Shown here piece by piece: positions 50,823 through 53,293 of a stretch of 64,000 nucleotides of DNA (the first letter of the stretch is position 1; every line of letters starts with the position of its first letter). The notes beneath the pieces were generated by a model. That model had not been told where the DNA came from. It was given only the letters and a program-made list of their open reading frames with translations, and did no database searches. Origin of the DNA: Escherichia coli (GTDB lineage: Bacteria; Pseudomonadota; Gammaproteobacteria; Enterobacterales; Enterobacteriaceae). The DNA is taken from NCBI RefSeq assembly GCF_003334385.1, contig NZ_QOWN01000006.1, one strand, 5' to 3'. The position numbers were made by a program, and so were the translations under genes.

Positions 50823-51215
50823 TCAGCGATAATTCACAATCACTTCATTACGTTGTACCTTTAGCGGTGGAATTAACCGCCCACCGCCTGGCACTTCCCA
50901 GATAAATCGCAACGGTTCTGCTGCCGCTATACCGGAAAAGGCCACGGTGGTTCCGCTCTGCCCCTCTAATTCGACACAACGAGATTGCGAACACAAGCGA
51001 ACCCGCAGTCCTGAAGGTGTCGGGCCGATAAGCTGATAACGCCACGCTACCAGCGTCATCAATCCTGAAGCAGGTTGTCGCGTAGAAAGAGGCGCAGACG
51101 ACATCGACTCACCGCGATGATTTAGCGTAATTCCTACACTACTTGCCTGCCACATCCCCTCCCCGGCGGCTTGCACCAGCAGCGGAAACAATAATATTGC
51201 TAATAAGGTTCTCAT
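50823..51215 (-). CDS. flhE: Flagellar protein FlhE
   Basis: 130-aa translation MRTLLAILLFPLLVQAAGEGMWQASSVGITLNHRG...; start overlaps the flhA stop by 1 nt. Confidence 0.9.
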   Translation of the reverse strand: MRTLLAILLFPLLVQAAGEGMWQASSVGITLNHRGESMSSAPLSTRQPASGLMTLVAWRYQLIGPTPSGLRVRLCSQSRCVELEGQSGTTVAFSGIAAAEPLRFIWEVPGGGRLIPPLKVQRNEVIVNYR

Positions 51216-53293
51216 TATTTGCCGCCAATTGTCGCCGTCATGCGGATATGTCGGTTATCAGACAGTTCCAGATTCGACAGGACCACTAACTGCGGCAAGC
51301 TGCGGCGCAGGAAGCGAGACAATAATGGTCGCAGCGCGTGGTTCACCAACAATACTGGCGGCGCACCCAGCATCTCCTGACGGGATAGCGCTTCCTGAGT
51401 TTGCGCCAGTAAACGATCCGCCAGCCCTGGCTCCAGTCCTCCCCCGCCCTGCAGCGCCTGTAGTAACAAACGTTCCAGCGGTGTATCGAGGCCAATAACA
51501 TGGACTTCATCTTTGCCAGGAAACCACTGCTGGGTAATCGCCCGTCCCAACGCCACGCGCACGACGGCGGTTAATTCATGTGGATCGCTTTGGATGGGCG
51601 CATGTTCCGCCAGCGTTTCGAGAATGGTGCGCATATCGCGAATCGGTACTTTTTCATCGAGGAGATTTTGCAGCACTTTATGCAGTGTGGTGAGCGTGAC
51701 GACGCCAGGAACGAGATCTTCCGTCAGCTTTGGCATCTCCTGGGCGACGCGATCCAACAGCTGTTGCGCCTCCTGACGACCAAACAGCTCTGCGGCATGC
51801 TGGCTAATGAGGTGGTTAAGATGCGTTGCTACCACCGTGCTGGCCTCAACCACTGTGTACCCCTGAATCTGCGCCTGTTCTTTTAGCGCACTTTCAATCC
51901 AGATAGCATTCAGGCCAAATGCCGGATCGACGGTCGCCTCACCAGGTAACGTCCCGGCAGCGGTTCCAGGGTTAATCGCCAGCCAGCGCCCCGGATAAGC
52001 ATCACCACTGCCAATCTCCACGCCTTTCATCAAAATGCGATAGCGGGCAGGTTGCAGATCCATATTGTCGCGAATGTGCACCACTGGCGGCAGAAATCCC
52101 ATCTCCTGGGCAAATTTCTTGCGGATACTGCGTATACGGCCCAACAACTCACCATCCTGCTGGAAATCGACCATCGGGATCAGTCGATAACCCACTTCCA
52201 TTCCCAGAGAATCTTCCAGTTGTACATCGTTCCACGTCGCTTCGACAACGGTATTATTCTCTGCCATTTTTACCGGTTTGGGTTCGGCAGGCGCTTTTTG
52301 TTCGCGTCCGCGTATCCACCAGGCCAGCCCGAGCAATCCGGCAGTGAACAGCAAAAATACCAGGTTCGGCATTCCAGGCACCAGGCCGAGTAAACCGAGC
52401 ACGGCGGCGCTTAACAACATAACGCTTGGGTTACTGAAAAGCTGATTCACCATCTGCTCGCCAACATCCTGATCGGTGCTGACACGCGTAACGATGACCC
52501 CCGCGGCGGTAGAAATCACCAGCGCCGGAATTTGTGCCACCAGACCGTCGCCAATGGTCAATAGCGTATAACTTTCCGCCGCGTGTCCCATGCTCATGCC
52601 ATGTTGCAGCACGCCGACCAGCAACCCGCCGACAATGTTAATGACCATGATGAGGATCCCGGCGATGGCATCGCCGCGAACAAACTTACTTGCCCCGTCC
52701 ATTGAGCCGTAAAAATCGGCTTCCTGAGTCACTTCGGAGCGGCGTTTTTTCGCCTCATCTTCACCAATCAATCCGGCGTTAAGGTCGGCGTCAATCGCCA
52801 TCTGCTTACCCGGCATACCATCGAGAACAAAGCGCGCACCCACTTCTGCGATACGCCCGGCACCTTTGGTAATGACCATAAAGTTGATGATCACGAGAAT
52901 GACAAACACCACGATACCGATAGCGAAATTGCCACCAACGAGGAAGTGACCGAACGCTTCGACCACCTTCCCTGCCGCCGCCGCGCCGGTATGCCCTTCC
53001 ATTAAAATGATACGGGTTGAAGCCACGTTAAGTGCCAGACGCAACAGCGTGGTAAACAACAGAATGGTCGGAAACGCAGCAAACTCAAGCGTGCGCTGGG
53101 TAAACATCGCCACCAGCAACACCATGATCGACAAGGCAATATTGAAGGTAAACAACAGGTCGAGTATGAATGCGGGCAGTGGCAGCACCATCATCGACAA
53201 GATCAACAGGATCAAAATCGGTCCGGCAAGGATCTGCCATTGTGTCGATTTCAGGTTTGCGGGCAGGCGCAGCATCGCGGCCAGATTACTCAT
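51215..53293 (-). CDS. flhA: Flagellar type III export apparatus protein FlhA
   Basis: Track ORF 51215..53368 trimmed to MSNLAAMLRLPANLKSTQWQILAGPILILLIL... (692 aa). Confidence 0.95.
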   Translation of the reverse strand: MSNLAAMLRLPANLKSTQWQILAGPILILLILSMMVLPLPAFILDLLFTFNIALSIMVLLVAMFTQRTLEFAAFPTILLFTTLLRLALNVASTRIILMEGHTGAAAAGKVVEAFGHFLVGGNFAIGIVVFVILVIINFMVITKGAGRIAEVGARFVLDGMPGKQMAIDADLNAGLIGEDEAKKRRSEVTQEADFYGSMDGASKFVRGDAIAGILIMVINIVGGLLVGVLQHGMSMGHAAESYTLLTIGDGLVAQIPALVISTAAGVIVTRVSTDQDVGEQMVNQLFSNPSVMLLSAAVLGLLGLVPGMPNLVFLLFTAGLLGLAWWIRGREQKAPAEPKPVKMAENNTVVEATWNDVQLEDSLGMEVGYRLIPMVDFQQDGELLGRIRSIRKKFAQEMGFLPPVVHIRDNMDLQPARYRILMKGVEIGSGDAYPGRWLAINPGTAAGTLPGEATVDPAFGLNAIWIESALKEQAQIQGYTVVEASTVVATHLNHLISQHAAELFGRQEAQQLLDRVAQEMPKLTEDLVPGVVTLTTLHKVLQNLLDEKVPIRDMRTILETLAEHAPIQSDPHELTAVVRVALGRAITQQWFPGKDEVHVIGLDTPLERLLLQALQGGGGLEPGLADRLLAQTQEALSRQEMLGAPPVLLVNHALRPLLSRFLRRSLPQLVVLSNLELSDNRHIRMTATIGGK

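What the first reader, a model, noticed from the sequence alone, without database searches (positions are those of the whole stretch)
51213..53293. Tight translational coupling across flhB-flhA-flhE
The flhB stop codon lies 8 bp inside flhA (53286-53293), and the flhA stop TAA shares one nucleotide with the flhE ATG (51213-51217). Elsewhere in the window, 4-bp ATGA-type overlaps occur at znuC/znuB, yecD/yecE and cmoA/cmoB, and a 32-bp overlap at yebS/yebT. These overlaps are direct sequence evidence of operon structure and likely stoichiometric coupling.
Basis: seen in the sequence. Interest (0 to 1): 0.15.

Follow-up and report, generated by a model that had tools for sequence, protein, structure and literature searches.

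The report
Ordinary gene overlaps in flhBAE operon
The short stop/start overlaps between the flagellar genes flhB, flhA and flhE of E. coli K-12 are real and conserved in related bacteria, but they are the commonest textbook kind of bacterial gene overlap, are already listed in the literature, and cannot on their own set the 1:9 ratio in which FlhB and FlhA are used.

Summary
Observation confirmed. The window is E. coli K-12 MG1655 (100% identity). flhB (53286-54434, -) and flhA (51215-53293, -) overlap by 8 nt (ATGAGTAA). flhA and flhE (50823-51215, -) share one base (TAATG).

These are the three overlap classes (-4, -1, -8) known to be enriched in all prokaryotes. Both junctions are already listed, with the same distances, in a supplement of Huber et al. 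2023.

In a scan of other genomes, the -8 junction is kept in about 50 of 64 distinct Enterobacterales/Orbales loci. The flhA/flhE junction lies within -4..+3 in all 34 loci, and is -1 in 23. The start-codon calls are therefore solid and the layout is under constraint.

Translational coupling is plausible but untested for this operon. E. coli has weak Shine-Dalgarno sequences at both starts, and 4 of 5 comparable E. coli pairs tested elsewhere were coupled.

"Stoichiometric coupling" fails for FlhB:FlhA, which assemble at 1:9. It fits FlhA:FlhE better: published mass fractions give about 1.2-1.6 FlhA per FlhE.

Verdict: ordinary, already known, low interest.

The parts
53286..54434 (-). flhB coding sequence (382 aa, GTG start, TAA stop)
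   Evidence: RefSeq annotation of the identical MG1655 sequence; open frame checked; NCBIfam TIGR00328 FlhB scores 469.7 bits against a cut-off of 349
51215..53293 (-). flhA coding sequence (692 aa, ATG start, TAA stop)
   Evidence: NCBIfam TIGR01398 FlhA scores 949.6 bits against a cut-off of 772; the start position is conserved in all related loci
50823..51215 (-). flhE coding sequence (130 aa, ATG start, TGA stop; N-terminus MRTLLAILLFPLLVQA looks like a signal peptide)
   Evidence: NCBIfam NF047946 FlhE scores 213 bits against a cut-off of 150; FlhE is described as a Sec-translocated periplasmic protein in PMC11247099
53286..53293 (-). flhB/flhA 8-nt overlap ATGAGTAA: flhA start codon, then the flhB stop codon 5 nt downstream
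   Evidence: Read directly. The same ATGnnTAA layout is present in 49 distinct related loci, plus E. albertii. Listed as -8 in a supplement of PMC10666635
51213..51217 (-). flhA/flhE 1-nt overlap TAATG (shared A at 51215)
   Evidence: Read directly. The -1 layout is present in 23 of 34 distinct related loci and all 34 lie within -4..+3. Listed as -1 in a supplement of PMC10666635
53301..53306 (-). Weak Shine-Dalgarno-like GAGAAA upstream of the flhA ATG, inside the 3' end of flhB
   Evidence: Predicted pairing with the 16S rRNA 3' end is -3.0 kcal/mol, against a window median of -5.8 and a median of -5.4 in related -8 loci. Enterobacter and Citrobacter have AAGGA here
51222..51226 (-). Degenerate Shine-Dalgarno GGCGG upstream of the flhE ATG, formed by the Gly-Gly codons near the end of flhA
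   Evidence: -4.8 kcal/mol. Twelve of 34 related loci carry GGAGG or GGGGG at this place (-9.3 kcal/mol or stronger; median -6.15)
54435..54635 (-). cheZ-flhB intergenic region (201 nt), where the FlhDC-dependent class 2 promoter of flhBAE must lie
   Evidence: Gap. FlhD/FlhC binding and flhDC-dependent expression of flhBAE come from PMC4183435. The sigma-70 consensus scan found no site here, as expected for an activator-dependent promoter.
31657..31660 (+). znuC/znuB ATGA overlap
39638..39641 (+). yecD/yecE ATGA overlap
41685..41688 (+). cmoA/cmoB ATGA overlap
5753..5784 (+). yebS/yebT 32-nt overlap

Best explanation
These are the ordinary short stop/start overlaps of the well-known flhBAE class 2 flagellar operon of E. 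coli K-12. Shown: one mRNA region carries flhB, flhA and flhE. The flhA start lies 5 nt upstream of the flhB stop, and the flhE start shares a base with the flhA stop. Both layouts are kept across Enterobacterales. Inferred: a ribosome finishing flhB, or flhA, ends within a few bases of the next start codon. This raises initiation there in two ways: the same ribosome or its 30S subunit reinitiates, and the weak local ribosome-binding site is kept open for new 30S subunits. flhA and flhE are then translated only on mRNAs whose upstream gene is being translated. This gives co-ordinated expression, not fixed 1:1 output. FlhA must exceed FlhB about nine-fold if synthesis follows the composition of the complex, so most flhA initiation must be de novo. 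flhA to flhE output is close to equimolar.
For: Sequence and annotation. The proteins are true FlhB, FlhA and FlhE. The operon is established (PMC4183435; PMC11247099). The -4, -1 and -8 spacings are the three enriched classes, and coupling is most efficient between -4 and +3 (PMC12548453; PMC10666635). Four of five native E. coli overlapping pairs were strictly coupled (PMC6728339). The E. coli Shine-Dalgarno sequences are weak at both starts, at -3.0 and -4.8 kcal/mol against a window median of -5.8. Conservation: the -8 layout is present in 49 of 64 distinct loci plus E. albertii, with FlhB identity down to 50%. Every Ala codon at flhA position 2 in the -8 class is GCT (40 of 40), while loci with other layouts use GCT, GCC, GCG and GCA. 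The flhA/flhE junction is within -4..+3 in 34 of 34 loci. The flhA stop changes between TAA and TGA even within E. coli (locus L101) without losing the overlap. FlhA:FlhE is about 1.2-1.6 by published mass fractions. The same source notes that, when upstream translation promotes de novo initiation, the downstream protein can be much more or much less abundant than the upstream one (PMC6728339).
Against: No experiment on coupling in flhBAE was found. FlhB:FlhA is 1:9 in the machine, so pure termination-reinitiation cannot supply FlhA. Many relatives have a good Shine-Dalgarno sequence before flhE (GGAGG) or flhA (AAGGA), so independent initiation is available. Overlaps longer than 4 nt couple less well in engineered series (PMC12548453). 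The -8 layout could be kept simply because loss of the TAA would extend FlhB by 4-119 out-of-frame codons. Across 1,695 genomes the FlhB-to-FlhA distance averages +13.5 nt, so the overlap is not needed for the system in general.
Confidence: 0.6

Rival explanations
1. The overlaps have no role in translation. Each gene initiates independently at its own ribosome-binding site. The overlaps are by-products of a compact operon and of where usable stop and start codons happen to fall.
For: bioB/bioF in E. coli overlaps yet initiates de novo (PMC6728339). Shine-Dalgarno-like motifs precede both starts in most relatives. FlhA must be made in excess over FlhB. Across prokaryotes FlhB-to-FlhA averages +13.5 nt. 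The overlap frequency in the window is typical.
Against: Both junctions stay in the narrow -8..+3 range across an order of bacteria, despite 35-50% protein divergence and changes of the stop codon. The E. coli Shine-Dalgarno sequences at both starts are weaker than the window median. Four of five tested E. coli pairs were coupled.
Confidence: 0.25
2. The -8 layout is conserved because of protein-level constraints, not for coupling. The FlhA N-terminus M-A/S-N-L fixes 'AA' at codon 3, and loss of the TAA would add a long out-of-frame tail to FlhB.
For: Asn or Lys at FlhA position 3 is invariant in the -8 class. Mutating the stop would extend FlhB by 4-119 codons, and by more than 40 in most loci. 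In K-12 at least 28 further codons are open (read).
Against: Other layouts (-1, +1) exist in related loci with the same MANL N-terminus, so the protein sequence does not force the overlap. Every alternative layout still keeps stop and start within 1 nt of each other, which points to the spacing itself. This rival explains retention but does not exclude coupling.
Confidence: 0.1
3. Coupling works by RNA unfolding. Local hairpins hide the flhA and flhE start codons until the upstream ribosome melts them.
For: In E. coli the minimum-energy folds pair the flhA AUG with upstream ACUCAU. They also pair the flhE GGCGG and AUG with the early flhE coding sequence.
Against: The folds are not better than shuffled sequence (z = -0.46 and -1.48; 67 and 12 of 200 shuffles fold at least as well). 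RNAalifold finds no consensus structure in 20 related flhA/flhE junctions. The upstream ACUCAU partner of the flhA AUG is absent in the relatives (sequences).
Confidence: 0.05
4. The overlaps are artefacts of wrong start-codon calls.
For: the ORF listing shows an upstream in-frame GTG at 53368 for flhA, and there is an in-frame Met at codon 7.
Against: The ATG at 53293 is at the homologous position in all related loci. In-frame stops lie 0-1 codons upstream of it in Edwardsiella and Yersinia. Met7 is Leu in many genera. The flhE ATG is the first start codon of its ORF and is needed for the signal peptide.
Confidence: 0.01

Closest known systems
flhBAE (flhB operon) of Salmonella enterica and E. 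coli, a class 2 flagellar operon
   Same: It is this operon. The sequence is identical to MG1655, with the same gene order and the same products: FlhB (switch protein), FlhA (nonameric export engine) and FlhE (periplasmic protein).
   Different: Nothing differs. The window is the reference strain.
Short-overlap unidirectional gene pairs coupled by termination-reinitiation (Huber et al. 2019, 2023; reviewed by Brown and Wade 2025)
   Same: Same-strand neighbours with -8 and -1 spacing. FlhB and FlhA are subunits of one complex, the category in which such overlaps are 4.5-fold enriched in E. coli. Both junctions are listed in that paper's E. coli table.
   Different: Coupling has not been measured for these two junctions. 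The complex is 1:9, not equimolar. FlhE is not a stable subunit.
trpE/trpD and trpB/trpA stop/start overlaps of the E. coli trp operon (Oppenheim and Yanofsky 1980; Das and Yanofsky 1989; cited in PMC12548453)
   Same: Stop and start codons overlap, with an internal ribosome-binding site inside the upstream gene, and the downstream gene depends on upstream translation. The exact trp spacings are recalled from my own knowledge.
   Different: The trp pairs give equimolar subunits of one enzyme, and coupling was shown by experiment. Neither holds for flhB/flhA.
Phage MS2 coat/lysis coupling (RNA unfolding and termination-dependent restart)
   Same: An upstream ribosome gives access to a downstream start that lies inside the upstream gene (PMC12548453).
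   Different: MS2 uses a long overlap (-50 nt) and a defined hairpin. No conserved hairpin is found here.

Membership tests
flhBAE class 2 flagellar operon | Gene order flhB-flhA-flhE on one strand, downstream of the che genes | tested here: met
   The same order is described as conserved in PMC11247099.
flhBAE class 2 flagellar operon | The products are true FlhB, FlhA and FlhE | tested here: met
   NCBIfam equivalog models TIGR00328, TIGR01398 and NF047946 all score above their curated cut-offs.
flhBAE class 2 flagellar operon | FlhDC-dependent promoter upstream of flhB and co-transcription of the three genes | not testable with these tools
   Taken from PMC4183435: FlhD/FlhC ChIP peak, and expression of 137 falling to 0 in flhD and flhC deletion strains. 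The consensus promoter scan found nothing in the 201-nt gap.
Translationally coupled short-overlap gene pair (termination-reinitiation class) | Same-strand neighbours whose stop and start lie at -8, -4 or -1 (or up to a few nt apart) | tested here: met
   -8 and -1, read directly.
Translationally coupled short-overlap gene pair (termination-reinitiation class) | Translation of the downstream gene depends on translation of the upstream gene reaching the junction | not testable with these tools
   This needs premature-stop reporter constructs. No published test for flhBAE was found.
Translationally coupled short-overlap gene pair (termination-reinitiation class) | The junction layout is conserved among orthologous loci | tested here: met
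   The -8 layout is in about 50 of 64 distinct loci. flhA/flhE is within -4..+3 in 34 of 34 loci and is -1 in 23.
Stoichiometric (equimolar) coupling of complex subunits | The two products assemble in a 1:1 ratio, or a ratio no greater than upstream:downstream = 1:1 | tested here: not met
   The structures show one FlhB and nine FlhA (PMC7064499; PMC5542435). In the proteome FlhA is measured and FlhB is undetected. For FlhA:FlhE the ratio is about 1.2-1.6:1, but no stable complex is known.
Coupling by RNA unfolding | A conserved secondary structure that occludes the downstream start site | tested here: not met
   Fold z-scores of -0.46 and -1.48. No consensus structure in 20 relatives.

The most novel reading that the evidence does not exclude
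The -8 overlap is kept across Enterobacterales, and Escherichia has specifically lost good Shine-Dalgarno sequences at both junctions (AAGGA to AAACC before flhA, GGAGG to GGCGG before flhE). This could mean that in E. coli flhA and flhE translation is gated by translation of the upstream gene on the same membrane-targeted mRNA. That would be a co-translational assembly-order device that delivers FlhA next to a nascent FlhB-containing gate, and FlhE in step with FlhA.
Probability: 0.08. Interest if true: 0.3.

Novelty: already known. Interest (0 to 1): 0.05.

Why it matters
It matters little. It confirms that the annotated gene boundaries of a reference operon are right, and that this operon follows the general rule that neighbouring genes of one machine sit at -8, -4 or -1 spacing. 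The one useful caution is that an overlap does not imply equal output. FlhB and FlhA are used at 1:9, so reading "stoichiometric coupling" from overlaps alone is unsafe. People who engineer flhB, flhA or flhE deletions should keep the junction sequences intact to avoid polar effects.

Tried and rejected
1. Start-codon reassignment. I checked the upstream GTG at 53368 and the in-frame Met7 of flhA, and later starts for flhE. All are rejected by the comparative data.

2. Hairpins that hide the start sites. They are predicted in E. coli but are not significant and not conserved.

3. An internal promoter for flhE. There is one sigma-70-like hit at 51241-51214 (-), against 2.8 expected by chance in the region. 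Its -10 element overlaps the flhE ATG, so a transcript from it would lack the start codon. Rejected.

4. A 254-aa antisense ORF across the flhB/flhA junction (53007-53771, +). The open stretch varies from 19 to 332 codons in relatives and is 160 in another E. coli, so it is not conserved. Rejected as a gene.

5. Literature on coupling in flhBAE: none found. Minamino 1994, Stafford and Hughes 2007 and Li et al. 2014 are not held in the library. I therefore could not read the original sequence description or the ribosome-profiling synthesis rates.

6. FlhB abundance from proteomics: FlhB is never detected, so the FlhB:FlhA synthesis ratio stays unmeasured here.
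Full report
**What the window is.** A 4.1-kb query around the finding is 100% identical to E. coli K-12 MG1655 and to many other E. coli. It is found in 5,418 of 5,426 complete E. coli genomes. RefSeq annotation of the identical record gives flhE at 50823-51215, flhA at 51215-53293 and flhB at 53286-54434, all on the - strand. cheZ lies 201 nt upstream of flhB, and yecT is convergent downstream of flhE. NCBIfam equivalog models confirm the three proteins as FlhB, FlhA and FlhE, all above their curated cut-offs.

**The observation.** The - strand reads ccgacccATGAGTAAtctgg. The flhA ATG is at 53293-53291 and the flhB TAA at 53288-53286, an 8-nt overlap. It also reads ggcggcaaaTAATGagaacc. 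The flhA TAA is at 51217-51215 and the flhE ATG at 51215-51213, so one base is shared.
- ATGA at znuC/znuB (31657-31660)
- ATGA at yecD/yecE (39638-39641)
- ATGA at cmoA/cmoB (41685-41688)
- 32 nt at yebS/yebT (5753-5784)

For yebT no canonical start lies between the annotated ATG and the membrane helix, so that overlap is real too. These six are all the same-strand overlaps among the 44 same-strand neighbour pairs of the window.

**Is it more than chance?** As a property of this window, no. Eight of 44 same-strand pairs (18%) fall in the -8..+6 range, against 707 of 2,987 (24%) genome-wide in E. coli (PMC10666635). As a property of these two junctions, yes, in the sense that the layout is conserved (see the comparative section). 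The -4, -1 and -8 spacings are exactly the three overlap classes enriched in bacteria and archaea (PMC12548453; PMC10666635). Both junctions are already listed in the E. coli table of Huber et al. 2023. flhB/flhA appears as -8 and "complex: yes", and flhA/flhE as -1 and "complex: not".

**Comparative test.** I scanned one genome per species (GTDB representatives) for DNA encoding the FlhA peptide DGMPGKQMAIDADLNAG. About 70 were Enterobacterales or Orbales; the rest were mainly Planctomycetota and other phyla.

*flhB/flhA junction:*
- The flhA ATG lies at the position homologous to the E. coli start in every enterobacterial locus.
- The N-terminus M-(A/S/N)-N-L is conserved.
- In Edwardsiella ictaluri and Yersinia an in-frame stop lies 0-1 codons upstream.
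- Met7 is Leu in many genera.

The start call is therefore secure. The junction layouts are distributed as follows:

| Layout | Distinct sequences (of 64) | Where |
|---|---|---|
| ATGnnTAA (-8) | 49, plus E. albertii | Primary locus, from Citrobacter to Photorhabdus, Providencia, Pantoea, Dickeya and Edwardsiella; FlhB identity down to 50% |
| TGATG or TAATG (-1) | 9 | Some Yersinia, and what looks like a second, paralogous flagellar locus |
| +1 | 2 | Acerihabitans, Morganella |
| +8 or +17 | 3 | Gilliamella |

In the -8 class every Ala codon at flhA position 2 is GCT (40 of 40). In the other classes all four Ala codons occur. The class is defined by that T, so the point is its high retention across an order, not the 40 of 40 itself.

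*flhA/flhE junction:* 23 of 34 distinct loci have -1, four have -4 and seven have +1 to +3. All lie within the range where coupling is reported to be most efficient. The flhA stop alternates between TAA, TGA and TAG without loss of the layout, even between two E. coli strains (K-12 TAATG, L101 TGATG).

Outside this order the overlap is not general. Huber 2023 gives a taxon-adjusted FlhB-to-FlhA distance of +13.5 nt over 1,695 genomes. The Planctomycetota and other distant loci in my scan have positive gaps.

**Ribosome-binding sites.**

| Start | Motif in E. coli | Predicted pairing with 16S 3' end | Comparison |
|---|---|---|---|
| flhA | GAGAAA | -3.0 kcal/mol | Window median -5.8 over 61 genes; -8 class median -5.4, with AAGGA in Enterobacter and Citrobacter |
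| flhE | GGCGG | -4.8 kcal/mol | Related loci median -6.15; 12 of 34 carry GGAGG or GGGGG, made from the FlhA Gly-Gly codons |

Escherichia thus has the weaker sites, which makes some dependence on the upstream ribosome more likely there.

**RNA structure.** The E. coli minimum-energy folds pair both start codons. They are no better than shuffles (z = -0.46 and -1.48). RNAalifold finds no shared structure in 20 flhA/flhE junctions. The upstream partner of the flhA AUG is specific to E. coli. Coupling by a conserved hairpin is therefore not supported.

**Mechanism.** Shown:
- flhBAE is a single FlhDC-dependent operon (PMC4183435).
- The junctions have -8 and -1 spacing.
- The layout is conserved.

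Inferred: a ribosome ending flhB or flhA stops within a few bases of the next AUG and promotes initiation there, either by restarting or by keeping the site open for new 30S subunits. The prior for this is fair, because 4 of 5 native E. coli overlapping pairs were strictly coupled and one, bioB/bioF, was not (PMC6728339). I put about 0.6 on real coupling at these junctions.

**Stoichiometry.** The export gate contains a single FlhB on FliP5Q4R1 (PMC7064499) and a nonameric FlhA ring. Restarting by the same ribosome cannot give more FlhA than FlhB. If synthesis follows composition, most flhA initiation must be de novo. The source paper itself notes that, when upstream translation promotes de novo initiation, the downstream product can be far more or far less abundant than the upstream one.

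The published absolute proteome of Mori et al. 2021 gives these mass fractions:

| Protein | Mass fraction |
|---|---|
| FlhA | about 2.0-3.5e-4 |
| FlhE | about 3.2-4.1e-5 |
| FlhB | not detected in any condition |

With a mass ratio of about 5.3 between the two proteins, this is about 1.2-1.6 FlhA per FlhE. That is compatible with near-equimolar output at the -1 junction. These values come from strain NCM3722 and are scaled to ribosome-profiling data, and the FlhB:FlhA synthesis ratio remains unmeasured here. FlhE is a periplasmic, Sec-exported chaperone-like protein and not a stable partner of FlhA (PMC11247099).

**The 32-nt overlap.** The yebS/yebT overlap should not be grouped with the others. 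In one engineered series, coupling fell with increasing overlap and was absent at -25 nt (reviewed in PMC12548453).

**Comparison with known systems and novelty.** This is the reference flhBAE operon, and its overlaps belong to the commonest known classes. Both are in the genome annotation and in a published genome-wide table. What I add is minor:
- a count showing that the -8 and -1 layouts are kept across Enterobacterales;
- the note that Escherichia has degraded Shine-Dalgarno sequences at both sites;
- the point that 1:9 stoichiometry rules out simple equimolar coupling at flhB/flhA.

Nothing here would surprise a specialist.

**Limits.** flhE starts in distant relatives were assigned by rule: the in-frame ATG or GTG nearest the flhA stop within the homologous ORF. 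No experiment on this operon could be found or run. Three key papers (Minamino 1994, Stafford and Hughes 2007, Li 2014) were not available.

**Verdict.** Already known; interest 0.05.

Noticed in passing
L010 (Escherichia albertii NBRC 107761), flhB, about 980 nt upstream of the flhA start: flhB carries an in-frame premature stop at about codon 55 (…GGASLAR*LSGM…). The -8 junction and the rest of the gene are intact (94% identity to E. coli FlhB), so this is probably a recent pseudogene. That would fit the non-motility usually reported for this species, which I recall from my own knowledge.
   Followed up: partly
L017, L030, L062, L096, L098, L104 (Enterobacter sp. BIGb0383, Pluralibacter gergoviae, an Enterobacteriaceae MAG, Lelliottia nimipressuralis, Yersinia artesiana, Rahnella bruchi): A second flhB-flhA(-flhE-like) locus lies beside the primary one in several genera. 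Its FlhB is 54-67% identical to the E. coli protein and its FlhA starts MANLATKLRLPN/D. The junction sequence is nearly identical across these loci (gcacaagagagt…gagTGATGgc) and has -1 spacing instead of -8.
   Followed up: no
L044-L047 (Gilliamella sp. wkB308, four contigs): Four different contigs of one assembly carry the same flhB/flhA junction and the same hit statistics. This could be assembly redundancy, a mixed culture or a real multi-copy region.
   Followed up: no
window 15022-15025: The convergent genes exoX (+) and ptrB (-) overlap by 4 nt at their 3' ends. yebW and pphA (10555/10556) are convergent with no gap at all.
   Followed up: no
window 46684-46991 (-), 11343-11487 (+/-), 60982-61059 (+), 42706-42748 (+): Known small RNAs are found at Rfam gathering scores: MicL inside cutC, the antisense pair SraC/RyeA and SdsR/RyeB, C0465 between tar and cheW, and ES036 downstream of cmoB. 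The window has no tRNA genes.
   Followed up: no
window 53007-53771 (+): A 254-aa ORF with an ATG start lies antisense to the flhB/flhA junction. The open stretch is not conserved: 19-332 codons in 63 related loci, and 160 in another E. coli. It is probably a by-product of codon usage.
   Followed up: yes
window 53254-53353 (-) and 51176-51275 (-): The E. coli-specific predicted folds pair the flhA AUG with an upstream ACUCAU, and the flhE GGCGG and AUG with codons about 8-14 of flhE. They are not significant against shuffles and are absent from relatives.
   Followed up: yes
window 54432-54434 (-), 63565-63567 (-): flhB and cheA are both annotated with GTG starts. The flhB start also has a modest Shine-Dalgarno sequence (-4.9 kcal/mol). 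That would fit a low FlhB output relative to FlhA.
   Followed up: no
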